From positions 1-64,000 of the IMG/VR virus record IMGVR_UViG_3300032250_000184: a DNA stretch of 64,000 nt, one strand, 5' to 3'. Origin of the DNA: a virus (lineage: Duplodnaviria > Caudoviricetes). This document shows, piece after piece, positions 34,504 to 55,644 of this stretch. Under the pieces are notes generated by a model, which saw only the letters and a program-made list of their open reading frames with translations, ran no database searches and was not told the origin of the DNA. The translations under genes were made by a program, and so were the position numbers. The stretch's first letter is position 1. Each line of letters opens with the position of its first letter.

Positions 34504-35610
34504 CTACCGGATAATGTCAATATTTGTGTCGTTGGTCCATATCTCAAGTGTTGTGCGGAGACGACCTTCTGTTTTCAATGTATCATAACGGTTACTGGCT
34601 TTCTGTTTCCACCATTGTATCACATTTTCCAATTCATGTTTATGGTAGTTTTCACCAGGTAAAAGAGTATCCGTTTTACAGGTTACATAATCAACCATGT
34701 TCTTAAAACCATAATCTGAAATATAGTATCGTTTCTGTTCTGTCAACTTTTTAGCATTTTCAATCGTTGTATCAAATGCAGACAGTTCATCTGTACCTTT
34801 CAATGCAGCTCTGGTTAAAGATATCATCTTCATAGAGATTTTTAGTTTACGACTAGAAATTCCATCATCAACAAACTTTCCAATTTTTGATTCAACAAAT
34901 GCAACCAAATCTGAATAAGGTTTACCATGCATCATAGGCAAAAAATCTGATTCTGTCAAGCCTTTATATCGAATATATGGTTTCATGCCATCATATTGTG
35001 AAGATGCCTTTGTTGAACCATACAGACTTGTGGTCTCAAATAAACACATATTCATATTGTATTTTTTGTTTACCAGTTCTCTTACTGTGTGACTGGTGCA
35101 GATTGCAGCCAGTAGTTTGCCACCAAGATAATTGAAACCAAATGGTTGTGCTGGTACAATAACAAACCCCATCATTGCGGAGTCATTGAATCGTTTACCC
35201 CACTCAGGTTGTTGCGTAAACACTTGTCCAAGCATTTCATTTCGTGGTCGACAGTTGATGACAGGTGAACCTAACCGAATGAAACCTACGAACTTTCCTG
35301 AGTTCTTTTCTTTAACGGCAAGTTTTAATTGACGACCAACAGGTGCAATATTGATATGTGAACTGGTAATACTCAACAATGTTTCCCATGTATCACTTGG
35401 AATTTCCAATACTTCTAGATCCATATCGTTTGGATGCATTGAAAAATCGGAGAATAAATCTTCTTCAATTGGAAATAATGGGTTGATTGAGATTTCAGAA
35501 AGAGAGGCTAGTTTCTGGTCACGCATATAATCATCGATGCGAGCAAAGTTACCAAAGTAATCTTGGAACACCTTAGCAACATGAATACCATCTTCTTTAC
35601 TTAACATCAT
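34504..35610 (-). CDS. DruA/DUF4338-like protein (copy 1)
   Basis: GRQLKLAV..GKFVGFIRLGSP, GFNYLGGKLLA..C.S, ETTSLYG..SQYDG. Confidence 0.65.
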   Translation of the reverse strand: MMLSKEDGIHVAKVFQDYFGNFARIDDYMRDQKLASLSEISINPLFPIEEDLFSDFSMHPNDMDLEVLEIPSDTWETLLSITSSHINIAPVGRQLKLAVKEKNSGKFVGFIRLGSPVINCRPRNEMLGQVFTQQPEWGKRFNDSAMMGFVIVPAQPFGFNYLGGKLLAAICTSHTVRELVNKKYNMNMCLFETTSLYGSTKASSQYDGMKPYIRYKGLTESDFLPMMHGKPYSDLVAFVESKIGKFVDDGISSRKLKISMKMISLTRAALKGTDELSAFDTTIENAKKLTEQKRYYISDYGFKNMVDYVTCKTDTLLPGENYHKHELENVIQWWKQKASNRYDTLKTEGRLRTTLEIWTNDTNIDIIR

Positions 35611-38364: not shown

Positions 38365-39339
38365 TCATTTATTTTTTTCTTTAAAAGCAAGTTCTGCTTT
38401 CTCATCATATTTACTTATATCTTCTATTTTGTTGGATTTTCTGTTAGGAAATCCTCGTTTCTGAGTCAACGGAGGAATCGTTTCGTCACTAGTGGCATCA
38501 ATGACGATCTCCTCAGTTTTCGATTCAATATCCTCCTCGATTGAAGTGATGTTTTCTTTGGGTATTTCAATCTTATCGTCCGGCCGTTCTTGAATGTCTT
38601 GAATTGCTTCAACACCGAGCTCAGTAGTTTCAGGTACCGAAACGGGAAGTGAAACCTCTGGTTGTTCATCTTTTTTCCTCATTGACATATTCGCTGCTAT
38701 TAATAATAACACAGCTAGAGGGTCAAATACAACCATAATTAACATGATTACCAACCGAACAGCCTTATCTAAACCGTTTTCATCATCAGTACCATAAATC
38801 ATATCACCAATATACTTAATAGGACCAACTTCTGCCTCAAGCTTATTATTCTCTTTTAATAATGGTAACTTTTGTTTATTAAGTTGTGATAATTCTTTTT
38901 GAGTATCTTGAATCTGTTTATCTAAACGATTACTGGCTGTCGATGGATCTTTTGCACGAGCCAACAAATAATCCAACCGTTCTTTTACAATCTTCTCTTG
39001 TTGTAAAATGGTTTTAATTTCAACTGAATTAACACCGGCATCCATTGTAGAATCGATGTGTGCCTTAGATAAGAAACCAAAAATACCCATACTAGTGATT
39101 ATCATTAGAACCACAACGGAGAATGTTAGGTAAGATTTTAACAGTATTGGACAAGTTTTCCAGTTACGATATAACCATGATGCAGTAACCAATTTACTCA
39201 TTTCCAAAACAGAACCCATGAAAACGATTGGCCAAAAAGCACCAGTAAAAATTGCAGCCAATCCAATAATAGAATAATAGGCTGCAATACCCGAAAGTAA
39301 TAAGGCTGAAAGTAGTGTTAAAAATATCATGGGTGTCAT
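38365..39339 (-). CDS. multi-pass membrane protein with coiled coil
   Basis: Three N-terminal TMs, coiled coil, VFDPLAV TM, acidic tail. Confidence 0.65.
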   Translation of the reverse strand: MTPMIFLTLLSALLLSGIAAYYSIIGLAAIFTGAFWPIVFMGSVLEMSKLVTASWLYRNWKTCPILLKSYLTFSVVVLMIITSMGIFGFLSKAHIDSTMDAGVNSVEIKTILQQEKIVKERLDYLLARAKDPSTASNRLDKQIQDTQKELSQLNKQKLPLLKENNKLEAEVGPIKYIGDMIYGTDDENGLDKAVRLVIMLIMVVFDPLAVLLLIAANMSMRKKDEQPEVSLPVSVPETTELGVEAIQDIQERPDDKIEIPKENITSIEEDIESKTEEIVIDATSDETIPPLTQKRGFPNRKSNKIEDISKYDEKAELAFKEKNK

Positions 39340-41873
39340 GAAAAGAAATCCTCTATTGAACTAGTTTTTTCTGTTGACCACTTCATACAATCTAAAATAA
39401 CTTTGATAGGTTCAAGAAATGCTTTGTCGAATTGCATATCATAATCGATGTATTCTTGCATTTCAAATTCTTTAGGTAAACGAGAAGGATAAGATATGAC
39501 TGTATCTTTAAATGGATTTGGCATTTTTAAATAAGTAAACTTAACTTTTTCACCTTCTTGTATTAGTGGATACTTTTTGGTGAGATTCAATCGTTTTAGA
39601 TTCGTATTATAGATAATCGCACCCTTAACATGAATTGGTGTGCCTTTCTTGTAAAGATGTACCGCATCAGAATAGGTATTTAGCCCATTTAGTCCACGAG
39701 GAAAAGATATTTCTTCTACAGGCAGAGTTTTAAATTCTGCTCTGAAATCTGCAATGAACTTATGAATATCTTCTTGTGTTCCGTTTACCATTAATTGAAT
39801 TGCCTGTTTCATCTTCTCACGAATGGCAGAAGGTGTGGACGATTTAATCATCTCAAGACCCATCACCTTCATCTGCGGCTCGTTATACTGCACACCCTCA
39901 TTATTGTATACATTTAGAATGTAACGCTTCTTGGCCGTCCAAATACCTTTATTGGAAAGGCCTTCTCGTTTCATCTGCATTTTTTGGTCATAAGCATGAA
40001 CATACGTAGCAAGCTCTTGATAACTTTTGTCAATAAAAGGTTGTAACTTATCTTCACAGACCTTGTCCATGAAGGCGATAACTTGTTTAATGTCAGTCTG
40101 GTTTGGATACACCTTCTTAACAAGTTCACCAAGGTGGAGATAAATCGAATCTGTGTCAGAGGCGATAACATAATCTTCTTCCGTTTTCAATAAGTTGTTC
40201 ATGTATTGGTTAATCTTATTTTCGATCCAACGAATACTTAATTGTCCAGCAGTTGTAACACCCAAAGCCATTCTTAGGTCATAAAATCTAAAATATTGAG
40301 AACCAAGAGCACCGTAAGCAGAGTTAAGAGAAACTTTTTTGGCGAGCTGAATATTGTTGTACTTAGCGATTCGTTTTTCGATTTCGTATTTTTTCGATTC
40401 ATCTGTTTCATTTTCATACTCCTGTTTTGCAGCCAACATCATCTTTTTAAACTTACTTCTATCTTGATACATTTCTTCCATCATCTTAGGTAAGAAACCT
40501 TGAATGTCTGTACGAAAGAATTGTCCGTTTGGAGTGAGTGTAACATTCTCTAAACCAGATGTATCAACCGATTTAGTTAGGAGTTTTTCGACCGAAACAC
40601 CTTGTGATAAAACATTCCTCATCTCTTGAGTATAATCTTCAGGCTCGATCAAAGTTTCTGGAGAAATATTATATTGCATCATCAGGTGTGGATAGAGTGA
40701 GTTCAAATCGAAACTAGCAACCCAATCATGTAGTCCTGTCTTTGGTGTTTTAACATATGCACCCTCAAACATTCCATCTTTTTCTTTTACTTCTCTTGGT
40801 GGAACAATAATGTTTTTCTCACGCAAGTAGGAATAAGTCATTGCATCCCACATGCGAGTCTGTGCAAAAATATCTTCATAGTTGGATTTTGTATCGTAGG
40901 CCAGAGTTACACCTAGTTCCAACAGTTTCAACTTTTCTTCAAGACGAACAATCAATTCAACGTCTTTAATGTTATACTCAATAAACTTTTGATAGTTTAA
41001 ACGATATAGTGCATGTAGATTATCATATTCATCATAGGCAATCTTACCTTCACCCAGCTCGACTTGTGCAATGTTATCTAAACGATAAGATTCTTGTGAC
41101 TTACCACCTGGCGCATACCATTTGTATAGTTCAATATAATCAAGTGATGCAACACCAACAATGTCGTAAGCGATTAACTCACGGCCATTGATTCGGGTCT
41201 TTCTTTCGGTAAGATATTTCCAAGGAGACAAGGTTTTGGTTTCATCTTCACCTAGAATTTTACGGAAACGATTGATGATGTATGGTATGTCAAAGAACTT
41301 GGTATTCCAACCAGTAAGAATATCAGGACACACTTTTGTCCAGAGTGCCATGAATTGTTTGCATAAAGAATATTCATCTTTACACTTCACATAAACTTCT
41401 TCACCTTGTGTAACATACTCACCACAACCAAACACATAAGTTTTACCGTTAAGGTATTTTACCGCAATTGCTGTGATGGGTTCGTTTGCTTCATAAGGAT
41501 CAGGAAATCCATTCTCGGAACCAACCTCGATATCGATTACAGCAATTAAGACTTTATCTTGGTCATAGTCAACCATGCCTTGGTGTTGGTCGGCAATGTA
41601 AGCATATTCAAATCGTGTTTGGCCATAGACTTTAGAAGCACCAGACACACCTTCAAACTGCTTGATGTAATCTCTTGCCTCTTTAGTTGTACCAAATACT
41701 TTTTGATCTAGATAATCACCAGTGAGTGTGGTGAAATTAGTAACTCGTTTGGATGGTAGAAAAAGAGAAGGAGAATACTCAATTCTTTGCTTTACTCTCT
41801 TACCATCTATAATACCACGGTAGAGAATGTTACTACCAAAACATTGAACATTAGTATAGAATGATGAACTCAA
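39336..41873 (-). CDS. gp43: family B DNA polymerase
   Basis: DIEV, TGWN..FFDIPY, YNIKD, SFDLNSLYP, K..LNSAYG, SDTDS, KKRY. Confidence 0.97.
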   Translation of the reverse strand: MSSSFYTNVQCFGSNILYRGIIDGKRVKQRIEYSPSLFLPSKRVTNFTTLTGDYLDQKVFGTTKEARDYIKQFEGVSGASKVYGQTRFEYAYIADQHQGMVDYDQDKVLIAVIDIEVGSENGFPDPYEANEPITAIAVKYLNGKTYVFGCGEYVTQGEEVYVKCKDEYSLCKQFMALWTKVCPDILTGWNTKFFDIPYIINRFRKILGEDETKTLSPWKYLTERKTRINGRELIAYDIVGVASLDYIELYKWYAPGGKSQESYRLDNIAQVELGEGKIAYDEYDNLHALYRLNYQKFIEYNIKDVELIVRLEEKLKLLELGVTLAYDTKSNYEDIFAQTRMWDAMTYSYLREKNIIVPPREVKEKDGMFEGAYVKTPKTGLHDWVASFDLNSLYPHLMMQYNISPETLIEPEDYTQEMRNVLSQGVSVEKLLTKSVDTSGLENVTLTPNGQFFRTDIQGFLPKMMEEMYQDRSKFKKMMLAAKQEYENETDESKKYEIEKRIAKYNNIQLAKKVSLNSAYGALGSQYFRFYDLRMALGVTTAGQLSIRWIENKINQYMNNLLKTEEDYVIASDTDSIYLHLGELVKKVYPNQTDIKQVIAFMDKVCEDKLQPFIDKSYQELATYVHAYDQKMQMKREGLSNKGIWTAKKRYILNVYNNEGVQYNEPQMKVMGLEMIKSSTPSAIREKMKQAIQLMVNGTQEDIHKFIADFRAEFKTLPVEEISFPRGLNGLNTYSDAVHLYKKGTPIHVKGAIIYNTNLKRLNLTKKYPLIQEGEKVKFTYLKMPNPFKDTVISYPSRLPKEFEMQEYIDYDMQFDKAFLEPIKVILDCMKWSTEKTSSIEDFFS

Positions 41874-41874
41874 T

Positions 41875-42186
41875 TTAGCCTGTAATTAAAGATTTGGTTG
41901 GCGGAAGAACGATACCAGAACCAAAAATTTGATTGTAGTTTGTAATAAAATCTTCCGCAGGAACATAGGAGTATACTACATTCTTCTTAGCTAAGGCAAC
42001 CAGTGCATTTGATTTTTGTTCGGCATGAATGGGAAACGGTGCGAATCCAACAGAGGGTTGGCCATCTTTACCACGAACCACGGCAATACCAACAGGATTA
42101 ACTATTACAAATTCGGTTTCAGATTCAGATTCAACTTCTCCAAGAACATCTTCACCGGTTATTAATTTAAGTGCTAAAACTTTCAT
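41875..42186 (-). CDS. conserved Sm-like-fold T4-type protein
   Basis: LKLITGEDVLG; resembles 60038..60415. Confidence 0.55.
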   Translation of the reverse strand: MKVLALKLITGEDVLGEVESESETEFVIVNPVGIAVVRGKDGQPSVGFAPFPIHAEQKSNALVALAKKNVVYSYVPAEDFITNYNQIFGSGIVLPPTKSLITG

Positions 42187-42207
42187 TATACTATCTCCAT
42201 TTTTGAT

Positions 42208-42281
42208 TGGTTGCGGATCCTGGAGTCGAACCAAGAACTGAGGATTATGAGTCCTCTGTGATACCTTTTCACCAACCCGCT
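42208..42281 (-). tRNA. tRNA-Met(CAT), initiator-like acceptor stem
   Basis: A1:A72 mismatch, GCGGG/CCGC-A-CCA, loop CT-CAT-AA, TTCGACT. Confidence 0.85.
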
Positions 42282-42288
42282 ATATTTT

Positions 42289-42528
42289 TTAACCGTAAAT
42301 AAAAATTACTTCGTTGATAGGAACAACATATTGTTCATCTTCAACTTTTACCGCTTTGTTCCAATTTAAGAGCAACTCATCACCAATTGAAACCTCATCG
42401 ACTTTAGGACCAAGAGCAACAACTACAGCTCGATCAGGTTCTTCTGTCCACTTTAAAATGATTCCAGACTCGGTTTGTTTTTCTGCTGCAATTCGTGTTA
42501 CAATAATGTTATCTCTTAACGGTTTCAT
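42289..42528 (-). CDS. GroES-like co-chaperonin (gp31-like)
   Basis: KPLRDNIIV, ESGIIL, VVALGP, VSIGD. Confidence 0.85.
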   Translation of the reverse strand: MKPLRDNIIVTRIAAEKQTESGIILKWTEEPDRAVVVALGPKVDEVSIGDELLLNWNKAVKVEDEQYVVPINEVIFIYG

Positions 42529-42540
42529 AATTACCTTTCA

Positions 42541-42915
42541 TGTGAATTTGATGTTGCATTGTTGAGAATACTGTTTCGTGTTTAAAAGATTCTGGCCTGT
42601 GCTGGTTAACCCAGTCATTGCACGGATCTTTCCTCAATCGCATCGTTTACTCGGCATCAGCGTTCCGATATTTCCCAGATTTTGGGCTGACTTAACAAGG
42701 ATAGTTCACTTCCCTAACAGTTGGGATTGCTTACTCTTTCGCTCACATTCTCAACAATGCTCTCTGTCCCTAAACAGAGAACTTTGTGTCTTGTTACTTT
42801 TGGACGACAATCCTCAGGCCTGAATGAGGATACTCGGACACGGCCATTCGTCTTTGTATTTTTAGCCTGTTTGTGCATAACAGAATAGGGATTATCTGTC
42901 ATAGGCATGGCACCT
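42541..42915 (-). ncRNA. candidate large structured ncRNA directly 3' of tRNA-Gly
   Basis: 14-bp perfect inverted repeat 42556-69/42747-60 plus several hairpins; GC-richer than its flanks. Confidence 0.55.
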
Positions 42916-42920
42916 CTGTT

Positions 42921-42994
42921 TGGAGCGGGATGTCAGAATCGAACTGACAACGAAAGGTTGGAAACCTTTAGTTTTACCATTAAACTAATCCCGC
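42921..42994 (-). tRNA. tRNA-Gly(TCC)
   Basis: GCGGGA acceptor, U73-CCA, loop TT-TCC-AA. Confidence 0.92.
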
Positions 42995-42995
42995 A

Positions 42996-43130
42996 TTAAT
43001 CTTTATCTTTTCTTGCTTTTTTCTTTGCTTCTAATCTATCTAATAAATCTAATAATTCTTGTTTTGTTAATGTTCTACCCCAGCTAGATGTTGTTGTGTT
43101 TGCTTCAGGAACATCTTTAACTTTTTTCAC
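42996..43130 (-). CDS. small hypothetical protein (44 aa, GTG start)
   Basis: Manual translation VKKVKDVPEANTTTSSWGRTL... Confidence 0.4.
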   Translation of the reverse strand: MKKVKDVPEANTTTSSWGRTLTKQELLDLLDRLEAKKKARKDKD

Positions 43131-43133
43131 GAC

Positions 43134-43349
43134 TTATTCTGTAGCTACTGGCTCTGCACTTTTGCCAAAAGTTTGTGTTTGTAAACGATTTGCAATAGCT
43201 CTTTTAATTTTAGAAATGTGTTTCTTACGAGCACTATCTAACAATTTTGTTAATTGAGCAATGTTCAAAGGACCTAAACGTGGCTTGCCAGTTTTGGTCA
43301 ACATAGGATTTGCTTTACGAGTTTTTTGATTTGAACCTTTTCCTGCCAT
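43134..43349 (-). CDS. small basic hypothetical protein
   Basis: AAGGA SD; K/R rich. Confidence 0.6.
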   Translation of the reverse strand: MAGKGSNQKTRKANPMLTKTGKPRLGPLNIAQLTKLLDSARKKHISKIKRAIANRLQTQTFGKSAEPVATE

Positions 43350-43375
43350 AATATTTTATCCTTTAAACTAAAATT

Positions 43376-43442
43376 TGGAGCGGTGGTCTGCTATGCTCAG
43401 ATAATTCAAGAGGGTATCTCAAATCGTACTATTACACACCGC
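43376..43442 (-). ncRNA. non-canonical tRNA-Gly-like RNA (67 nt)
   Basis: GCGGTG/CACCGC-U-CCA acceptor, mini D-arm, loop AUACCCU, T-loop AGCAUAG. Confidence 0.7.
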
Positions 43443-43510
43443 ATATCCTGCTTACCGGTTACAGGGTCACTTAATGACGGAAGTTTTGCTGTTTCACAAC
43501 AGTAAATCTA

Positions 43511-43539
43511 ATTATATACTTATCTATGATGTTTGTCAA
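43511..43539 (-). promoter_or_regulatory. sigma70 promoter TTGACA-17-TATAAT
   Basis: Perfect consensus ~70 nt upstream of the tRNA-Gly-like RNA. Confidence 0.8.
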
Positions 43540-43557
43540 TAGATAATGTGGTACACT

Positions 43558-43632
43558 TGGTGGGCCAAGATAGAATTGAACTATCACTCCATCGATTATG
43601 AGTCGATTGCTTTACCATTAAGCTACTGGCCC
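43558..43632 (-). tRNA. tRNA(CAT), probably Ile2 (lysidine type)
   Basis: GGGCC acceptor, A73, anticodon arm ATCGA-CTCATAA-TCGAT like bacterial tRNA-Ile2. Confidence 0.8.
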
Positions 43633-43633
43633 C

Positions 43634-43708
43634 TGGTCCGGCTAGCAGGAATCGAACCCACATTAAGGGAGTAGAAATCCCCTGTATTATCCATTATACT
43701 ATAGCCAG
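43634..43708 (-). tRNA. tRNA-Arg(TCT)
   Basis: Loop TT-TCT-AC, TTCGATT, CCA end. Confidence 0.9.
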
Positions 43709-43713
43709 AATTA

Positions 43714-43953
43714 TTATAGTGAAGCCACACCAAGGTGAAATGAACTTATTAGTAAATCCTTGGAAATACCACAGAGGTTCCGGCTTACCAATCCCGACCT
43801 GTTAAGGTTTAGGTGTGCTTCACTATAATAATTCTTTTTAGATTTCTCTAATCGTCTTATAGCTTTGTTACTTTTTTTATGACTCCCAGCTTTACGAAAC
43901 AATGCCAATTTGACAAGATAGTTTCGTGGTTGAGGAGTATTTTTCTTCTTCAT
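43714..43953 (-). CDS. small basic hypothetical protein
   Basis: AGGAG SD; RKAGSHKKSNKA. Confidence 0.55.
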   Translation of the reverse strand: MKKKNTPQPRNYLVKLALFRKAGSHKKSNKAIRRLEKSKKNYYSEAHLNLNRSGLVSRNLCGISKDLLISSFHLGVASL

Positions 43954-43971
43954 AATACTCTCCTTAAAAAA

Positions 43972-44046
43972 TGGTGGTAATGAGTAGATTCGAACTACTG
44001 ACCTACTCCGTATGAAGGAGTTGCACTACCGCTGTGCTACATTACC
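43972..44046 (-). tRNA. tRNA-Met(CAT), elongator type
   Basis: Fully paired acceptor, loop TT-CAT-AC, CCA. Confidence 0.88.
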
Positions 44047-44047
44047 A

Positions 44048-44138
44048 TGGAGCTCGTTGTGTAAACGGGACGGCAAACTCCGTTGTTGTTCGGCCGAGAG
44101 GATCACCCAGCCCAATCATTACACTTGATACAACAATC
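44048..44138 (-). ncRNA. 91-nt CCA-ending tRNA-like RNA between tRNA-Tyr and tRNA-Met
   Basis: Ends pair (GATTGTTGT/ACAACGAGC) followed by U-CCA; internal GC-rich hairpins. Confidence 0.6.
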
Positions 44139-44223
44139 TGGTGGGGAATACTGGGATCGAACCAGTCGTGCCGCAAGGCGGCGGATTTACAGTCCGCTGA
44201 ATCACCATTGATTCTTCTTCCCC
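44139..44223 (-). tRNA. tRNA-Tyr(GTA)
   Basis: Loop CT-GTA-AA, long variable arm, CCA. Confidence 0.92.
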
Positions 44224-44229
44224 AAAACT

Positions 44230-44306
44230 TGGCTCCCTAGCGTGGGTACGATCCACGGACCTTCTGATTAACAGTCAGACGCTACTACCAACTGAGCTAC
44301 TAGGGA
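44230..44306 (-). tRNA. tRNA-Asn(GTT)
   Basis: Loop CT-GTT-AA, G73-CCA; variant T-loop ATCGTAC. Confidence 0.9.
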
Positions 44307-44944
44307 ATATTCTTAATTACTCTACCTTTTTTCCAACCTTCAGGTATGATATCGTTCTTTTTAATTCTAATACTTTCAATTCCATTTGTGATCCACATTG
44401 TACCATATTGTGAATTGCCTAAACCTTTTTGGTGAATACTGTTTTTTTCACCTATTTTTTTCTTGGATTCTTCTTTGTGTTTTTTACCTATCCAAGAGTA
44501 AGTATCTTTCCACGTTCTTAACAAACCTTTTTTGTGTAGTTCTTTGGATTGTTTTCTATTTCTTTCAATATATTCTTCACGAAATTTTGAATCTTCATTT
44601 AATCTTTTTATTAAAGCATCACTACCTAATTTACCAATTCGTTTTCGTTGTTCGTCTGTTATATTTTTGTTTATAAAATCAAAACCACCATCACCACCTT
44701 TTTTCAAGTTGTATGTGTGTGGCCCAATTTCAACCAATTCTTTTTCTTTCTCAAACATTTCTTCGGCTGAAGAAGCTTCAAAAATAATTTCTTTAATAAA
44801 ACTATCTACACCATATTTTGATATAGCTCGTTTTAAATATTTACCGGAACCAAAATAACCATCATTTTTGTCTCTGGTTTTATGACAACCGATATAAATC
44901 TTATTGTTAATAGTATTTGTTATCTTATATACAAGGTAAAACAT
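44300..44944 (-). mobile_element. Seg-like GIY-YIG homing endonuclease inside the tRNA cluster
   Basis: LVYKITN..KIYIGCH..YFGSG..KEII; KHKEESKKKIG (NUMOD3-like); WITNG..PEGWKKGR. Confidence 0.85.
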
Positions 44945-44988
44945 ATTTTCTCCCAATTATATAATATATATAAAAGTTCGATATTGTA

Positions 44989-45059
44989 TGCTCTGTGAGA
45001 GAATCGAACTCCCATATCAGGATTACAAATCCAGCGTAATACCATTATACTAACAGAGC
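44989..45059 (-). tRNA. tRNA-Thr(TGT), no encoded CCA
   Basis: Loop TT-TGT-AA; 3' end A-TAC. Confidence 0.85.
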
Positions 45060-45063
45060 CTAG

Positions 45064-45138
45064 TGGTACACGATACCAGAATCGAACTGGTCTTACCGCC
45101 GTGAAAGGGCGGTGTCCTAACCGATAGACGAATCGTGC
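45064..45138 (-). tRNA. tRNA-Glu(TTC)
   Basis: CCGCC-CTTTCAC-GGCGG, CCA. Confidence 0.92.
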
Positions 45139-45151
45139 ATCTAAGTAAAAC

Positions 45152-45180
45152 ATTATACATCAATCCACACAATAAGTCAA
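45152..45180 (-). promoter_or_regulatory. internal sigma70 promoter TTGACT-17-TATAAT
   Basis: Upstream of tRNA-Glu; TGTTG-N8-CAACA at 45186-45203. Confidence 0.7.
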
Positions 45181-45204
45181 GCGGCTGTTGTATGGAAACA
45201 ACAC

Positions 45205-45279
45205 TGGTCGGAGTAGAAAGAATCGAACTTTCGAAATCTCGCTCCCAAAGCGAGTGACATACCACTTGCCGATACTCCG
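45205..45279 (-). tRNA. tRNA-Pro(TGG)
   Basis: CTCGC-TTTGGGA-GCGAG, C1-G72, CCA. Confidence 0.92.
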
Positions 45280-45297
45280 TTTAACTTTACAATAACC

Positions 45298-45371
45298 GGG
45301 CATCCCGTGAGAGAATCGAACTCCCGCCAAGGCGTTTGGAGTGCCTTGTGCTACCATTACACCAACGAGAA
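45298..45371 (-). tRNA. tRNA-Trp(CCA), 3' end G-CCC
   Basis: Loop CT-CCA-AA, G73; CCA not encoded. Confidence 0.82.
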
Positions 45372-45373
45372 CT

Positions 45374-45460
45374 TGGCGGAAAGTATTGGGATCGAACCAA
45401 TGCACCCATTTCTGAATGACGGTTTAGCAAACCGTTGCCTTGCCACTCGGCCAACTTTCC
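45374..45460 (-). tRNA. tRNA-Ser(GCT)
   Basis: Loop TT-GCT-AA, long variable arm, G73-CCA. Confidence 0.92.
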
Positions 45461-45466
45461 GTAATC

Positions 45467-45554
45467 TGGAGGAAGATGTGAGATTCGAACTCACGGACCT
45501 ATTACAGCCTCTAGTTTTCAAGACTAGTGCAATCGACCACTCTGCCAATCTTCC
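45467..45554 (-). tRNA. tRNA-Ser(TGA)
   Basis: Loop CT-TGA-AA, long variable arm, CCA. Confidence 0.92.
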
Positions 45555-45556
45555 TT

Positions 45557-45633
45557 TGGTGGAGGTGACAGAGAATCGAACCTGCGACCTACTGCTTGCA
45601 AAGCAGCCGCTCTACCAACTGAGCTACACCCCC
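45557..45633 (-). tRNA. tRNA-Ala(TGC)
   Basis: G3:U70, loop TT-TGC-AA, CCA; one extra nt in the T-stem. Confidence 0.9.
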
Positions 45634-45668
45634 AAAAACAAAAAACCCAAGATGTTTAGTCTTGGGTT
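45634..45668 (-). terminator. attenuator terminator before the first tRNA
   Basis: AACCCAAGA-CTAAACA-TCTTGGGTT followed by TTTTGTTTTT. Confidence 0.8.
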
Positions 45669-45693
45669 CGTATAAACTTTGTTACTTAAAAAT

Positions 45694-45768
45694 TTACAAA
45701 CGAACCCCTACCTGCCACCCTGCGGCTGGTGATGTATAATTGGATGGGCTTGTAAATATATTTTTCAT
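45694..45768 (-). CDS. putative leaderless leader peptide MKNIFTSPSNYTSPAAGWQVGVRL
   Basis: ATG is the 7th nt after the -10 box; last codons contain GGGTTCGT, complementary to the terminator 5' arm. Confidence 0.7.
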   Translation of the reverse strand: MKNIFTSPSNYTSPAAGWQVGVRL

Positions 45769-45774
45769 TGTTCT

Positions 45775-45803
45775 ATTATATAGGATCTTTTTTGTCTTGT
45801 CAA
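45775..45803 (-). promoter_or_regulatory. tRNA-operon promoter TTGACA-17-TATAAT
   Basis: Perfect consensus with AT-rich upstream region. Confidence 0.85.
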
Positions 45804-45816
45804 GCAATTTTATTAA

Positions 45817-46314
45817 TTATTTCCAACCAAGCGGTTCTATTTCTATTGGTGAGTCAGGATCAACAACATGGTCAAATACTTCCCACAACTTTTCTTTTAC
45901 TGCAAACTTTGTAAACAATCCAGATTGCATCCCGTAAGCTTCTACTTCCCATGGTTGGAACCAATAATCTGGTTCCAAAACTTTACTACCTTTCCATCGA
46001 GTAAGATTTATATTAACATCACCATGTACATACTGTTTAATATGTACCATCTCATGACTTAGTGTTTTTAATATCTCAGCTGCACCAATACCTGGATGTA
46101 ATTCTATTTCAAATTGTCTTGGTTTATTACTACGACTAAACTCTACAACTGAAGCATATCCGTGTGCATTAATTTTTGAACTGAACTTAATTCTTAAAAA
46201 AATGTTTTCCAACATCCTAGGTGTCATTAAAGATTCTGCGTAAAACAGAGCAGCCCTTTTCACATAGGGACGGAAACGTTGTTTATCGGGACAACCGACT
46301 ATACTTAACTGCAT
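45817..46314 (-). CDS. zincin-like metallopeptidase (SprT-like)
   Basis: LSHEMVHIKQ, PWEVEAY; AGGAGA SD before MQLS. Confidence 0.7.
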   Translation of the reverse strand: MQLSIVGCPDKQRFRPYVKRAALFYAESLMTPRMLENIFLRIKFSSKINAHGYASVVEFSRSNKPRQFEIELHPGIGAAEILKTLSHEMVHIKQYVHGDVNINLTRWKGSKVLEPDYWFQPWEVEAYGMQSGLFTKFAVKEKLWEVFDHVVDPDSPIEIEPLGWK

Positions 46315-46411
46315 TTTAGGTCTCTCCTTAGTAAATTGACCCAATAATTGCATTAATCCGTTGATACTCACACTGCTTATTTATGACCAACACACATTTC
46401 ACCAGGTGAAA

Positions 46412-46846
46412 TTACTTCTGTATTTGTTCTATTATTATATCACATTTGGTCAAAAAGTCAAGCCCCTGTGAATCCCTGTAGGAATCACGGTAATATACCT
46501 TTTTGATGCCTGCGGTATATATTTGTTTAGCACAATCAATGCAAGGTGCATGGGTCAGGAACATCATGGAACCATCTCCAGACTCGGAACTCTTGGCCAA
46601 CTTAGCGATGGCATTGGCCTCAGCGTGAATCACCTCAGGTTTGGTTTTTGAGAATACCGTATCATCTGATAGTACGGTATAGTTTTCACATTCATTTGTC
46701 CAACCAGCAGGCATTCCATTATAACCAATAGAGATAATTCTATCTTCTTTAACTACAATCGCACCTACCTGTAACCGTTTGGCTGAAGATAATTTGGCAA
46801 ACCTTTCGGCCACGTCCATGTAGGCATCAATAAATTTTTGTTTCAT
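46412..46846 (-). CDS. cd: dCMP deaminase
   Basis: VGAIVV, GYNG, HAEANAI, PCIDCAK. Confidence 0.9.
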   Translation of the reverse strand: MKQKFIDAYMDVAERFAKLSSAKRLQVGAIVVKEDRIISIGYNGMPAGWTNECENYTVLSDDTVFSKTKPEVIHAEANAIAKLAKSSESGDGSMMFLTHAPCIDCAKQIYTAGIKKVYYRDSYRDSQGLDFLTKCDIIIEQIQK

Positions 46847-47439
46847 CGTTTTGTAAAACTTTCAATAATTCTAATAAATGACCATACATTATTCCTAATG
46901 GATGAATCATAAAGTGCCATCTGTTCTAATACAGCATCTTCAATTCCAGCACTAAATTGATTTTTCGAAATTTTAATTGTGGCTTCTTTTTCGAAAGAAT
47001 CTAAAGTAACAATCGTCATGTTATTCTTTTTGGCAATATGTTGTATCGTTTTATTCTCCGACAAACAATGCATGAATAATGATTCCGAACCCATTGCTCT
47101 GGCCCAAATAGCACCACGATTAAACAATTCTTGGCCAATTTTTTGATCACGATAATCAGGACTAACCGTTAATCCTAATTCAGCAGATTTTGTTTTTTTG
47201 TCGTAAGCAACATGACAAGAAGCTACAAAATTGCATCCATCTTCCACAACAAACCACATATTCTTAAAACCATAATGTTCGAAAGATTTATCACAAATGT
47301 ATCTTTCTATGATATCATCATTAACAATGTTGCCAAATCTCAATCTCCTATCATCACCACGAATGTCATCATAGAAGTGTTTTACCAATCTATCAATGTC
47401 CATTTTGTGTGGAACTAATTTTCTAGGAATCATTACCAA
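46843..47439 (-). CDS. GNAT acetyltransferase
   Basis: AELGLTVSPDYRDQKIGQEL (motif A), N..IQHIAKK. Confidence 0.8.
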   Translation of the reverse strand: MVMIPRKLVPHKMDIDRLVKHFYDDIRGDDRRLRFGNIVNDDIIERYICDKSFEHYGFKNMWFVVEDGCNFVASCHVAYDKKTKSAELGLTVSPDYRDQKIGQELFNRGAIWARAMGSESLFMHCLSENKTIQHIAKKNNMTIVTLDSFEKEATIKISKNQFSAGIEDAVLEQMALYDSSIRNNVWSFIRIIESFTKR

Positions 47440-54378: not shown

Positions 54379-55644
54379 TTATCTGCCAACTTGTGGCAAA
54401 TACTTGGCCTTGGTTTCTTCCCAAGACAAGTAAATTAGGTCATCATAGAATAAAGAATCGTAAGAAACAGTATTCTTCTTCTGTAATTGCCTAATTCGAC
54501 CCTTAGCATACTTGGTTTTCCAAATATTGGCAAGGGCTTCTTCACTGGTATCAAACGACTTTACCAGATCAGAATCGGTAATCTCCTTACGGAGAAATTC
54601 AAAGGTGTTGTTGTAGAGAGGACTAAAATAGATACCACGTTGATGTTCGGTGCGAATCAGTTCTTTTGGTATTTGCAGTTTAGAATATGCAAAGTTTAAA
54701 GAACGATTCTTATGGTCACGCTTAAGTGGAAGTCCTTGTGTATTCTTGGCTTCCCACCACTCAAAGTATTTACGAGTATGATTCTCTTTGATCCAATCAA
54801 ACACTATTTTTTTGGTTGACCTCGATGGTTCGAAAGCCACAGAACCAGAAGAAAAACCCATAGGATTCCAATGTTCAAGACCATCGTACTGCGAGAGGCC
54901 TCCAGCCTTTGTTTTTCCATAGAGTGACGTTGTAGTAACGCCAACAAGAGTGTCTCCATATTGTCTTTTCCAATCTGCCTGAACTGTATCAGATAAACAC
55001 ATCAATGCCAGTAACTTACCACCCATGTAATTAAAACCTAATGGTTGTAACGGAACGATGGTGGATCCAATTGCGGTGTGATTAATCATGTGTTGCTGTG
55101 TCTTAACATCTCTCGACCATCCGATGGCGTTATCTCTTGGAGTCAAGTCCAGAAAGTCTGAGGAGATACAGATAACACCAAGATACTTACCAGTAACTTC
55201 ATCTGTTAAAACATAAAATAGATTACGACCAATATTTGAATTGTTCTTCATGGTTGATGAGAATGTGCGAATGGCATTCCAACGAGCTGCATCTTCACCA
55301 TTAGACAATACCATAACCGGTTTTAGTTTTTCATAATCATCAGGAGATTCTGGCACCCAAAAGTTTTTTCTAACTTCTTTAATAAGTTTATCTTGCTCAG
55401 GATCAACCATTTGTAACTCTGTACCAAATATAGTACTGGCTTCAAAGACAGGATATCTTTCTTTCACTTCACACCATTTTTGATATAGAGTATATTCACG
55501 AACATCCATTTGTGATGCGTATGTTAAGTCCTTGATGAGGACTTCTTTCATATTTGCTTCATCAATGTGATGAAATGAATTGACAGGATTTTTCTCTTGC
55601 CAATCATTCCATTGTTTTTCTACATACTCAATTGGTGTTGCCAT
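54379..55644 (-). CDS. DruA/DUF4338-like protein (copy 2)
   Basis: IGRNLFY..GKYLGVI, RDNAIGW, GFNYMGGKLLA..C.S, TTTSLYG..SQYDG. Confidence 0.7.
   Translation of the reverse strand: MATPIEYVEKQWNDWQEKNPVNSFHHIDEANMKEVLIKDLTYASQMDVREYTLYQKWCEVKERYPVFEASTIFGTELQMVDPEQDKLIKEVRKNFWVPESPDDYEKLKPVMVLSNGEDAARWNAIRTFSSTMKNNSNIGRNLFYVLTDEVTGKYLGVICISSDFLDLTPRDNAIGWSRDVKTQQHMINHTAIGSTIVPLQPLGFNYMGGKLLALMCLSDTVQADWKRQYGDTLVGVTTTSLYGKTKAGGLSQYDGLEHWNPMGFSSGSVAFEPSRSTKKIVFDWIKENHTRKYFEWWEAKNTQGLPLKRDHKNRSLNFAYSKLQIPKELIRTEHQRGIYFSPLYNNTFEFLRKEITDSDLVKSFDTSEEALANIWKTKYAKGRIRQLQKKNTVSYDSLFYDDLIYLSWEETKAKYLPQVGR

What the first reader, a model, noticed from the sequence alone, without database searches (positions are those of the whole stretch)
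43376..43539. Non-canonical 67-nt tRNA-Gly-like RNA with a dedicated consensus promoter
Seen: GCGGTG-T-GTA-ATAG-TAC-GA-TTTGAG-ATACCCT-CTTGAA-TT-ATCTG-AGCATAG-CAGAC-CACCGC-T-CCA. It keeps the bacterial GlyRS identity set (G1-C72, C2-G71, G3-C70, U73, CC in the anticodon loop with apparent ACC) but has a 6-bp acceptor, a minimal D-arm without GG, and no TTC in the T-loop. It has its own TTGACA-17-TATAAT promoter and a ~60-nt leader with small hairpins (CTGTT-GTGA-AACAG, GTCA-TTAAG-TGAC). A normal tRNA-Gly(TCC) is also present. Established: staphylococcal non-proteinogenic tRNA-Gly species with altered D/T-loops serve Fem (GNAT-fold) transferases. Inference: this is a Gly donor for non-ribosomal chemistry, or a decoy for tRNA-targeting defences.
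Basis: partly seen in the sequence, partly recalled or inferred. Interest (0 to 1): 0.8.

Follow-up and report, generated by a model that had tools for sequence, protein, structure and literature searches.

The report
Phage mini glycine tRNA, non-decoding
An uncultured T4-like phage carries a conserved, shrunken 67-base copy of its glycine tRNA that tRNA finders miss; it keeps what the glycine-charging enzyme reads but has lost marks of ribosomal tRNAs, and in related phages it sits right behind a GNAT-fold enzyme gene, so it probably hands glycine to that enzyme, not to the ribosome.

Summary
On the minus strand, 43376-43442 encodes a 67-nt cloverleaf RNA with an encoded CCA. It lies behind a perfect TTGACA-17-TATAAT promoter (43539-43511) and a ~63-nt leader. 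ARAGORN and the Rfam tRNA model do not call it.

It is real and under selection. I found 52+ distinct variants on about 100 IMG/VR contigs of related T4-like phages, and none in 185,579 bacterial or archaeal genomes. Conservation starts at AU|G1 and stops at CCA. All four helices show compensatory changes (98.7% of cells paired, 0/500 shuffles reach the observed values).

A covariance model built from the family otherwise hits only the canonical tRNA-Gly genes of this phage and of T4, so it is a derived tRNA-Gly paralogue. It shows no homology to T4 species 2 RNA.

G1-C72, C2-G71, G3-C70, U73, C35, C36 and CCA are invariant, while N34 is A, U, G or C. Only one variant (L202) has both U33 and a purine at 37. 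The T loop reads [A/U]GC instead of TTC.

In 12 of 66 sufficiently long contexts, a DruA-family gene ends 27-65 nt upstream of it. The window's orthologue is at 54379-55644. Its model has a GNAT fold, and its best solved neighbour is phage Mu Mom, which transfers glycine from Gly-tRNAGly to DNA.

Best reading: a dedicated non-proteinogenic glycyl carrier. Earlier notes of this scan describe the same family on other genomes.

The parts
43534..43539 (-). -35 hexamer TTGACA of the dedicated sigma-70-type promoter
   Evidence: Promoter scan, 12/12 match. About 33 of 41 contexts in relatives carry a near-consensus promoter upstream.
43511..43516 (-). -10 hexamer TATAAT, 17-nt spacer
   Evidence: In most relatives the -10 ends exactly 9 nt before G1. 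Here a leader is inserted, leaving 68 nt.
43443..43507 (-). Leader of ~63 nt with a GNRA-capped hairpin and two further hairpins. It is lineage-specific.
   Evidence: Fold. Found only in L223, L235 and, diverged, L286/L295, always between the promoter and the mini-tRNA.
43376..43442 (-). 67-nt reduced tRNA-Gly paralogue. Layout: acceptor 6 bp + U.C, D arm 3 bp with a 4-nt loop, anticodon helix 6-7 bp, T arm 4 bp with loop AGCAUAG, then U73 and an encoded CCA.
   Evidence: covariation; its covariance model otherwise hits only tRNA-Gly genes.
43413..43415 (-). Anticodon-equivalent ACC (positions 34-36). C35 and C36 are invariant in the family; N34 varies.
43134..43349 (-). ORF71, a small basic protein of unknown function on the same transcript, with an AAAGGA ribosome-binding site.
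   Evidence: It starts within 60 nt downstream of the element in 21 of 103 loci. No Pfam or PHROG family.
42921..42994 (-). Canonical phage tRNA-Gly(UCC), the presumed parent or paralogue.
   Evidence: ARAGORN and Rfam. It is the second-best hit of model R1 in the window, 30 bits. In many relatives it follows the mini-tRNA after 3-8 nt.
54379..55644 (-). DruA-family (PF14236) 421-aa protein with a GNAT-fold core. Putative glycyl-transferase partner (inferred).
   Evidence: Pfam. AF2 model, pLDDT 85.7. Best PDB neighbour is Mom 8BV8 by Foldseek and VIA-align. Orthologues end 27-65 nt upstream of the mini-tRNA in 12 contexts.
34504..35610 (-). Second DruA-family paralogue, 368 aa. Not adjacent to the RNA in any locus seen.

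Best explanation
The element is a functional, structurally reduced paralogue of the phage's own tRNA-Gly: a viral 'non-proteinogenic' tRNA-Gly.

Shown:
- It is a conserved gene family of an uncultured clade of T4-like phages.
- It folds as a mini-cloverleaf supported by compensatory changes.
- It usually has its own near-consensus sigma-70 promoter.
- It always encodes AU|G1...U73-CCA.

Inferred:
- It is cut at AU|G by RNase P and glycylated by the host GlyRS. The whole bacterial glycine identity set (G1-C72, C2-G71, G3-C70, U73, C35, C36) is invariant while position 34 drifts through all four bases.
- It is a poor ribosomal decoder or EF-Tu ligand. Only one variant has both U33 and a purine at 37. 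Positions 32:38 are a Watson-Crick pair closing a 5-nt loop. G18G19 and T54-Psi55 are gone. The acceptor/T junction carries mismatches.
- Its glycine is therefore reserved for a tRNA-dependent GNAT-fold transferase of the phage. The candidate is the DruA-family protein at 54379-55644, whose orthologues lie directly upstream of this RNA in several lineages.
- By analogy with phage Mu Mom, the likely target is phage DNA (anti-restriction hypermodification).
- A private carrier would keep a high-flux glycyl transfer from competing with translation, as the staphylococcal NP-tRNAGly species do for Fem transferases.

Graded confidence: real tRNA-Gly-derived RNA gene, about 0.97. Glycylated and kept out of normal decoding, about 0.7. 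Donor for the DruA-like GNAT, about 0.5. The figure given is for the whole chain up to the donor role.
For: 1. A real gene under selection.
- 52 distinct variants on ~100 viral contigs.
- Flanks are unrelated, and conservation runs exactly from AU|G1 to CCA.
- 98.7% of cells are paired, with 133 double-change cells; 0/500 shuffles reach these values. Slid controls pair at 33-55%.

2. Derived from tRNA-Gly.
- Beyond itself, model R1 hits only the tRNA-Gly(UCC) of the window (30 bits) and of T4 (20.8 bits). The other 20 tRNAs do not score.
- The canonical tRNA-Gly often follows it after 3-8 nt.

3. The glycine identity set is invariant.
-. The identity set is taken from PMC9976931.
- N34 is A, U, G or C.

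4. Non-decoder marks.
- Loops are AUACCCU, GUUCCCC, AUUCCCU, ACACCCU, UGUCCAA and GUGCCCC, plus a 6-nt UCCCAA.
- The canonical tRNA-Gly genes I inspected in the same contigs keep U33 and A37.
- The T loop is [A/U]GC instead of TTC. Staphylococcal NP tRNAGly carry the same position-55 change, and those tRNAs bind EF-Tu and ribosomes poorly (PMC7826273).

5. Not a gap-filler for decoding. Loci that hold both canonical GCC and UCC tRNA-Gly genes still keep it.

6. Partner.
- The DruA-like orthologue ends 27-65 nt upstream, on the same strand, in 12 of 66 contexts. These cover 8 RNA variants and four spacing/lineage groups.
- It lies 5.5-11 kb upstream in 5 others and in the window.
- All 7 larger records that have the RNA carry DruA-like genes.

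7. Fold of the partner.
- Its AF2 model (pLDDT 85.7) has a GNAT fold.
- Mu Mom 8BV8 ranks first in Foldseek (E 4.7e-3, prob 1.0), in VIA-align re-ranking, and in an exhaustive VIA search of 48,161 chains (Z 9.9, rmsd 3.8, 172 aligned; next Z 9.2-9.4 with ~146 aligned). All of the top 50 in the exhaustive VIA search, and nearly all rows in the other two, are GNAT-fold entries, FemA among them.

8. Precedent. Mom transfers glycine from Gly-tRNAGly to N6-adenine of dsDNA (PMC13219725).
Against: - There is no biochemical or expression evidence.
- The DruA-like family shows no sequence-profile similarity to the Mom family (hhalign probability <1%). PF25680 is absent from five records.
- Mom's lead over other GNATs is under 1 Z unit, which counts as a tie.
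- Two near-complete relatives (G002, G003) have DruA-like genes but no mini-tRNA. The enzyme therefore does not need it.
- 49 of 66 contexts have no DruA-like gene within the upstream sequence available. In the window the two genes are 10.9 kb apart.
- Adjacency in related phages is partly inherited, so the 12 contexts are not 12 independent events.
- ACC matches GGU, which makes up 60% of this phage's glycine codons. That fits a decoding role.
- A Watson-Crick 32:38 pair is also possible in the canonical tRNA-Gly genes here.
- The target of the transferase (DNA or something else) is pure analogy.
Confidence: 0.5

Rival explanations
1. It is an unusual but genuine decoding tRNA-Gly. It would be either a spare that host tRNA-directed nucleases or toxins cannot recognise, or a supplement for the phage's abundant GGU codons. 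The strong G-C codon-anticodon pairs would let a degenerate anticodon loop still read GGN.
For: - The full four-arm cloverleaf is retained with an NCC triplet in the anticodon position in every variant.
- The anticodon stem is one pair longer and the acceptor/T stack one pair shorter, so the overall length may be preserved (sequence inspection).
- ACC is cognate to GGU, which is 443 of 737 glycine codons here, while the canonical phage tRNA reads GGA/GGG.
- In one relative a canonical GCC tRNA is paired with a mini UCC.
- Phage tRNAs with altered anticodon loops that evade tRNA-targeting defences are documented (PMC10264068, PMC11464382; listed, abstracts only).
Against: - Only one of 52 variants has both U33 and a purine at 37, whereas the canonical tRNA-Gly genes inspected in these contigs keep both.
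- Position 34 changes among A, U, G and C within a closely related family.
- Loci that already hold canonical GCC and UCC tRNA-Gly genes keep the mini as well.
- G32-C38 or A32-U38 closes a 5-nt loop.
- G18G19 and T54-Psi55 are lost.
- From my own knowledge, A34 in tRNA-Gly is avoided across life.
Confidence: 0.2
2. It is a decoy or sponge. An abundant, chargeable tRNA-Gly look-alike would soak up a host (or rival-phage) factor that acts on the acceptor end of Gly-tRNAGly, for example GNAT toxins of the TacT/AtaT2 type. Alternatively it would modulate GlyRS or a tRNA-Gly sensor.
For: - A strong dedicated early-type promoter.
- What is strictly kept is the acceptor end (U73, G71) plus the GlyRS elements.
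- TacT recognises U73 and G71 of Gly-tRNAGly (PMC9976931).
- It is phage-specific, with no copy in 185,579 prokaryote genomes.
Against: - No known defence targeting tRNA-Gly is linked to these phages.
- A decoy of the acceptor end would not need an invariant D arm and T loop.
- The recurrent linkage is to a phage GNAT gene, which suggests a partner encoded by the phage itself.
- Extra canonical tRNA-Gly copies would dilute a toxin just as well.
Confidence: 0.12
3. It is a cis-acting processing or stability module (a 't-element'). A tRNA-shaped leader would be cut out by RNase P and 3' nucleases to mature the downstream tRNA-Gly or ORF71 mRNA, with no function of its own.
For: - It sits first on the transcript, directly before tRNA-Gly(UCC) or ORF71 in many contexts.
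- AU|G is a common RNase P context in this cluster.
Against: A pure processing signal does not need an invariant C35 C36, U73, D-arm sequence or T-loop sequence. It also occurs without either downstream partner.
Confidence: 0.05
4. It is a homologue of the T4 stable RNAs (species 2, rnaD), or a decaying tRNA pseudogene.
For: - T4 rnaD shares short motifs (ACCGGUAAG; GAURCCCUCUU) with the leader plus element.
- tRNA finders fail on the element.
Against: - Model R1 does not hit rnaD or rnaC at E<=10.
- Local alignment scores are no better than shuffles, and no better than the rnaC control (p about 0.04-0.1).
- The CCCUCUU stretch is stem sequence that covaries away in relatives.
- The pseudogene idea is excluded by the conservation and compensatory changes.
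Confidence: 0.03

Closest known systems
Staphylococcal non-proteogenic tRNAGly isoacceptors (NP1-NP3; S. epidermidis Ia/Ib) serving FmhB/FemA/FemB (PMC7826273)
   Same: - Extra tRNA-Gly paralogues that stay good GlyRS substrates.
- The T loop lacks the U that becomes pseudouridine (TGC/TGT there; TGC or AGC here).
- The G18G19 region is altered.
- They are thought to be withheld from EF-Tu and the ribosome so that a GNAT-fold transferase gets its own glycine supply.
   Different: - Viral, not cellular.
- An independent origin from a phage tRNA-Gly.
- Much more reduced: 67 nt, a 3-bp D stem with a 4-nt loop, a 4-bp T stem, and a 6-bp acceptor stem plus a mismatch.
- An anticodon loop without U33 and R37 together, and N34 free.
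- The linked enzyme is DruA-family, not Fem. No biochemistry exists.
Phage Mu Mom: Gly-tRNAGly-dependent N6-adenine hypermodification of DNA (PMC13219725; PDB 8BV8)
   Same: A phage GNAT-fold enzyme that takes glycine from charged tRNAGly. Mom is the top structural neighbour of the window's DruA-like protein in three searches.
   Different: - Mu uses the host tRNAGly isoacceptors and encodes no tRNA.
- The protein here belongs to Pfam DruA (PF14236), not Mom (PF25680), and has no detectable sequence-profile similarity to Mom.
- It is twice as long.
- Its substrate and target are unknown.
Canonical phage tRNA-Gly(UCC) (this window 42921-42994; T4 tRNA-Gly)
   Same: - The same first four acceptor pairs, U73 and encoded CCA.
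- The same AU|G 5' context.
- It is the only other hit of the family's covariance model, and often the immediate downstream neighbour.
   Different: The canonical gene has a 7-bp acceptor stem, GG in the D loop, TTCGA in the T loop, and the loop UUUCCAA with U33 and A37. It scores 68 bits on RF00005, while the mini form gets no hit.
T4 stable RNAs species 1 and 2 (rnaC, rnaD)
   Same: Small non-tRNA RNAs encoded inside a T4-type tRNA cluster, of unknown function, ending near CCA.
   Different: No sequence or structure relationship could be shown. The T4 RNAs are 139 and 119 nt and carry no Gly identity set.
Phage tRNAs that evade anticodon nucleases (T5 tRNA-Lys vs PARIS, PMC11464382; mycobacteriophage tRNAs, PMC10264068)
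   Same: Phage-encoded tRNA variants with changed anticodon loops.
   Different: Those remain canonical, detectable, decoding tRNAs. Here the whole body is reduced and the decoding marks are lost. I saw those two papers as abstracts only.

Membership tests
Canonical bacterial/phage elongator tRNA (Rfam RF00005) | Reaches the family's gathering score, or is called by ARAGORN | tested here: not met
   No RF00005 hit even at E<=10 over 42000-46500. ARAGORN calls nothing in the standard, -mt, -mtmam or -ps modes.
Canonical bacterial/phage elongator tRNA (Rfam RF00005) | 7-bp acceptor stem, G18G19 in the D loop, T54-Psi55-C56 in the T loop | tested here: not met
   6 bp plus U7.C66. The D loop is AUAG. 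The T loop is AGCAUAG, and [A/U]GC in all variants.
Canonical bacterial/phage elongator tRNA (Rfam RF00005) | U33 and a purine at 37 in a 7-nt anticodon loop | tested here: not met
   Only one of 52 variants (L202, AUACCAU) has both. Positions 32:38 are always Watson-Crick.
Substrates of bacterial GlyRS (tRNA-Gly identity) | G1-C72, C2-G71 (and G3-C70), discriminator U73, C35, C36 | tested here: met
   All are invariant in 52 variants. The identity set is as reviewed in PMC9976931.
Substrates of bacterial GlyRS (tRNA-Gly identity) | Actual glycylation | not testable with these tools
   Needs an in-vitro charging assay.
Non-proteogenic tRNAGly (functional class, PMC7826273) | T-loop TTC replaced so that no pseudouridine-55 can form; altered D/T arms | tested here: met
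   TGC or AGC in every variant. The staphylococcal feature was read.
Non-proteogenic tRNAGly (functional class, PMC7826273) | [quoted passage not shown] | not testable with these tools
   Only inferred from the lost decoding marks.
Non-proteogenic tRNAGly (functional class, PMC7826273) | A dedicated tRNA-dependent transferase partner | tested here: inconclusive
   A DruA-like GNAT gene is directly upstream in 12 of 66 contexts. Two relatives have the enzyme genes without the RNA.
Non-proteogenic tRNAGly (functional class, PMC7826273) | Membership of the staphylococcal NP lineage by descent | tested here: not met
   The nearest relatives by covariance model are phage tRNA-Gly genes. The paper states that the NP lineage occurs only in staphylococci.
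T4 species 2 RNA (rnaD) | Sequence or structure similarity to T4 rnaD | tested here: not met
   No hit of model R1 on T4 rnaD or rnaC. Alignment scores are within the shuffle range.
Mom family (PF25680), for the linked protein | Match to the Mom HMM or profile | tested here: not met
   PF25680 is absent from the window's record and from 4 relatives. hhalign probability is <1%.
GNAT superfamily, for the linked protein | GNAT fold | tested here: met
   All top 50 of 48,161 chains are GNATs, with Z 7.8-9.9. Mom 8BV8 ranks first with Z 9.9, rmsd 3.8 and 172 aligned residues.

The most novel reading that the evidence does not exclude
The mini tRNA-Gly and the DruA-family GNAT protein form a two-part, virus-encoded, tRNA-dependent glycyl-transfer system. 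It would hypermodify the DNA of a widespread clade of aquatic T4-like phages, using a private carrier RNA kept out of translation. By extension, DruA of type I Druantia defence systems would be a tRNA-dependent GNAT acting on nucleic acid.
Probability: 0.3. Interest if true: 0.85.

Novelty: new variant of a known kind. Interest (0 to 1): 0.72.

Why it matters
If this reading is right, these phages encode their own translation-excluded aminoacyl carrier. It would be a viral counterpart of the staphylococcal cell-wall tRNAGly species. It would also extend the recently shown Mom chemistry (charged tRNA as a donor for DNA modification) to large lytic T4-like phages that bring their own tRNA.

It would also give the first functional handle on the DruA/DUF4338 family, whose role in Druantia defence I believe is unknown. 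It shows that standard tRNA finders and Rfam miss a conserved family present on about 100 viral contigs.

The RNA is small and sharply defined, so it can be tested directly: charging, EF-Tu binding, and co-expression with the GNAT protein followed by nucleoside mass spectrometry.

I found no description of this family in the searched literature.

Tried and rejected
- **T4 rnaD homology.** Shared short motifs looked promising. The covariance model and shuffle tests did not support it.
- **Anti-Shine-Dalgarno mimic (CCCUCUU).** Rejected, because this stretch is stem sequence that covaries away in relatives.
- **Micro-ORF starting at the conserved ATG (AU|G1).** Rejected, because the frame length varies from 8 to 15 codons and is frameshifted among variants (sequence inspection).
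- **First IMG/VR pattern.** It was too loose and gave mostly chance matches. One scan was wasted.
- **blastn against 50,697 cultured phages.** It found only neighbouring canonical tRNAs. The closest cultured polymerases are ~51% identical cyanophages.
- **Bacterial and archaeal genomes.** No exact match to the 3' motif.
- **Strict DruA / mini-tRNA co-occurrence.** It is nested, not exclusive. By my own hand calculation, Fisher p is about 0.11 on 11 records, and the test is confounded by phylogeny.
- **ORF71 as a partner.** It is a frequent neighbour but not universal, and no family or fold information was obtained.
- **L177 (98% polymerase identity).** It lacks the whole tRNA cluster upstream of the polymerase gene, so it is uninformative as a near-isogenic control.
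- **Sequence-level link between the DruA-like protein and Mom.** phmmer against PDB and hhalign with shallow and deeper profiles found nothing.
- **Domain-only AF2 model of the GNAT core.** It was poor (pLDDT 59) and was not used.
- **ESM Atlas.** It gave only a weak 'phage GNAT-like' lead (score 0.83).
Full report
**Setting.** The window is part of a 72.7-kb IMG/VR virus record estimated at 43% complete. Its family-B DNA polymerase (39336-41873, minus strand) is about 51% identical to those of cyanomyoviruses. The phage is therefore an uncultured T4-like myovirus with 35-37% G+C. A cluster of 14 canonical tRNA genes lies on the minus strand between 42208 and 45633. As in T4, a segB-like GIY-YIG homing endonuclease gene interrupts it.

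**Observation.**
- A 12/12 promoter, TTGACA-17-TATAAT, lies at 43539-43511.
- The ~63-nt leader folds into the hairpins described.
- The 67-mer's minimum-free-energy fold is a cloverleaf (-16.6 kcal/mol, z = -2.05).
- ARAGORN, in standard, mitochondrial and relaxed modes, does not report it. Rfam does not report it at the gathering threshold or at E<=10.

**Is it real?**
- Loci fetched through the polymerase gene gave eight relatives. In these, conservation begins at AU|G1 and ends at the CCA, while both flanks are unrelated.
- Two motif scans of IMG/VR then gave about 100 contigs and 52 distinct variants. A profile search of the fetched loci added more divergent members (L138, L157).
- On a model-based alignment of 53 sequences, 98.7% of cells are standard pairs. 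133 cells carry changes on both sides, and no shuffle of 500 reaches these values. Sliding the 3' partners by 1-3 columns drops pairing to 33-55%.
- Every helix has at least one pair with compensatory changes: acceptor pair 5:68 (five pair types), the third D-stem pair (A-U, G-C, U-A), all six anticodon-stem pairs, and three of four T-stem pairs.
- Positions 32:38 also covary (A-U 43, G-C 7, U-A 2).
- The exact 3' motif has no match in one genome each of 185,579 prokaryote species.
- The pseudogene idea is excluded.

**What is it derived from?**
- I built a covariance model (R1) from 25 variants and ran it without filters on the whole window and on the T4 tRNA region.
- Apart from the element itself, it found only the canonical tRNA-Gly(UCC) of this phage (30 bits, E 2e-6) and of T4 (20.8 bits). 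None of the other 20 tRNAs scored, and neither did T4 rnaC or rnaD.
- In many relatives the canonical tRNA-Gly follows the element after 3-8 nt, which fits a tandem duplication.
- Less derived members (L125, L138, L145, L157, L262) still have a 5-bp T stem in some cases. They have the T loop UGCGAAU or UGCAAAC. Four of them have the anticodon loop UGUCCAA, which is the canonical UUUCCAA with U33 changed to G. L125 has a 6-nt UCCCAA loop.
- The apparent similarity to T4 species 2 RNA is no better than chance.

**What is kept and what is lost.**
- Invariant in all variants: G1-C72, C2-G71, G3-C70, G4-C69, U73, CCA, C35 and C36. This is the bacterial glycine identity set as reviewed in PMC9976931.
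- Position 34 is A in most variants, U in about a quarter, G in one and C in one. The triplet is therefore always NCC, but the first base is free.
- Only one variant has both U33 and a purine at 37. The canonical tRNA-Gly genes I inspected in the same contigs keep the loops UUUCCAA or UUGCCAA.
- G18G19 is reduced to a single G in a 4-nt D loop. The T loop reads [A/U]-G-C-A-[U/A]-A-G.
- The acceptor/T junction carries U7.C66 and A49.C65 mismatches. U7-A66 forms in 16 rows.
- The G at T-loop position 55 is the same change that marks the staphylococcal non-proteogenic tRNAGly genes, which carry TGC/TGT instead of TTC and bind EF-Tu and ribosomes poorly (PMC7826273).

**Expression signals.**
- About 33 of 41 distinct contexts have a near-consensus sigma-70 promoter. 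Most have the -10 hexamer ending exactly 9 nt before G1, so transcription would start 2-3 nt upstream of the mature end.
- The window, L223, L235 and L286 instead carry a conserved leader.
- A-2 and U-1 are invariant, but AU|G is also common before other tRNAs of the cluster. It probably reflects RNase P preference (inference).

**Decoder or not?**
- For a decoding role: GGU is 60% of the glycine codons in 37 long ORFs. ACC is cognate to GGU, while the canonical phage tRNA reads GGA/GGG.
- Against it: several loci hold both canonical GCC and UCC tRNA-Gly genes and still keep the mini form. Position 34 drifts. The loop lacks the decoding hallmarks.
- I rate a decoding role at about 0.2.

**Partner.**
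- Earlier notes of this scan on other genomes claimed a link to a Mom-like or DUF4338 enzyme. I tested this independently.
- The literature is real. Silva et al. (Nat Commun 2026, PMC13219725; preprint 10.1101/2023.03.24.534169) show that Mu Mom, a GNAT-fold enzyme (PDB 8BV8), transfers glycine from Gly-tRNAGly to N6 of adenine in dsDNA. All E. coli isoacceptors serve. The paper mentions no phage-encoded tRNA.
- The window encodes two DruA-family (PF14236) proteins, of 421 aa (54379-55644) and 368 aa (34504-35610).
- By tblastn on my loci, orthologues of the 421-aa protein (55-67% identity) end 27-65 nt upstream of the mini-tRNA on the same strand in 12 of 66 contexts that have enough upstream sequence. 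These cover eight RNA variants and four groups that differ in spacing and RNA subtype. The RNA's own promoter sits in the gap.
- In five further loci and in the window, the gene lies 5.5-11 kb upstream on the same strand.
- All seven larger records that have the RNA carry DruA-like genes. Two near-complete relatives have the genes without the RNA, and two records have neither. The RNA thus appears only where the enzyme is present, but the enzyme does not require it. That matches Mom's ability to use any tRNAGly.
- An AF2 model of the 421-aa protein (pLDDT 85.7, pTM 0.81) has a GNAT core at residues ~105-365.
- Mom 8BV8 is the top match in Foldseek (E 4.7e-3, prob 1.0), in VIA-align re-ranking, and in an exhaustive VIA-align search of 48,161 chains (Z 9.9, rmsd 3.8, 172 residues; next Z 9.2 with 146 residues; all top 50 are GNATs, FemA included).
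- The margin over other GNATs is under one Z unit. No sequence-profile similarity to the Mom family exists, and PF25680 is absent from these phages.
- 'GNAT fold' is therefore shown. 'Mom-like' remains a lead.

**Conclusion.**
- With near certainty, the element is a functional, tRNA-Gly-derived RNA gene of a phage-specific family that is absent from Rfam 15, and I found no description of it in the searched literature.
- With good likelihood (about 0.7), it is glycylated and kept out of normal decoding.
- With moderate likelihood (about 0.5), it is the private glycyl donor of the DruA-family GNAT protein. DNA as the target is suggested only by analogy with Mom.
- The same family has been reported by other agents of this scan on other genomes. 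My evidence for structure, ancestry and gene linkage was produced independently here.

Noticed in passing
window 43443-43507 (-); L286:4246-4315: The ~63-nt leader between the promoter and the mini-tRNA is conserved only in a few close relatives. It carries a GNRA-capped hairpin (CUGUU-GUGA/GGGA-AACAG) and CCUG-UAACCGGUAAG-CAGG. RNase P cleavage could release it as a separate small RNA.
   Followed up: partly
window 43134-43349 (-): ORF71 is a 71-aa basic protein with no Pfam or PHROG family. It starts within 60 nt after the mini-tRNA in 21 of 103 loci, and within 200 nt in 33. It may be an RNA-binding partner or just an early-gene neighbour.
   Followed up: partly
L286:4319-4388 and L286:4770-4836: One related contig carries two mini tRNA-Gly copies of different subtypes. 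One is a 70-nt form with a 5-bp T stem, and the other is the 67-nt main form. They are separated by the ORF71 homologue and one more ORF.
   Followed up: partly
window 54379-55644 and 34504-35610 (-): There are two DruA-family (PF14236) paralogues per genome in this phage clade. The larger one has a GNAT core whose best solved neighbour is Mu Mom. This hints that DruA of Druantia may also be a GNAT-type enzyme.
   Followed up: partly
I did not examine it. Model R1 does not hit it.
   Followed up: no
window 44300-44956 (-): A GIY-YIG (segB-like) homing endonuclease gene lies inside the tRNA cluster, at a place equivalent to segB in T4.
   Followed up: no
window 46412-47439 (-): A dCMP-deaminase-type gene and a 198-aa GNAT acetyltransferase gene lie 3-4 kb upstream of the mini-tRNA. 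The GNAT gene keeps a position 2-8 kb upstream of the RNA in at least seven other loci.
   Followed up: partly
L177:1-5522: A contig with a 98%-identical polymerase has no tRNA genes at all in the 5.8 kb upstream of the polymerase gene. Homology to the window breaks at window position ~42199. The tRNA region is a mosaic hot spot.
   Followed up: partly
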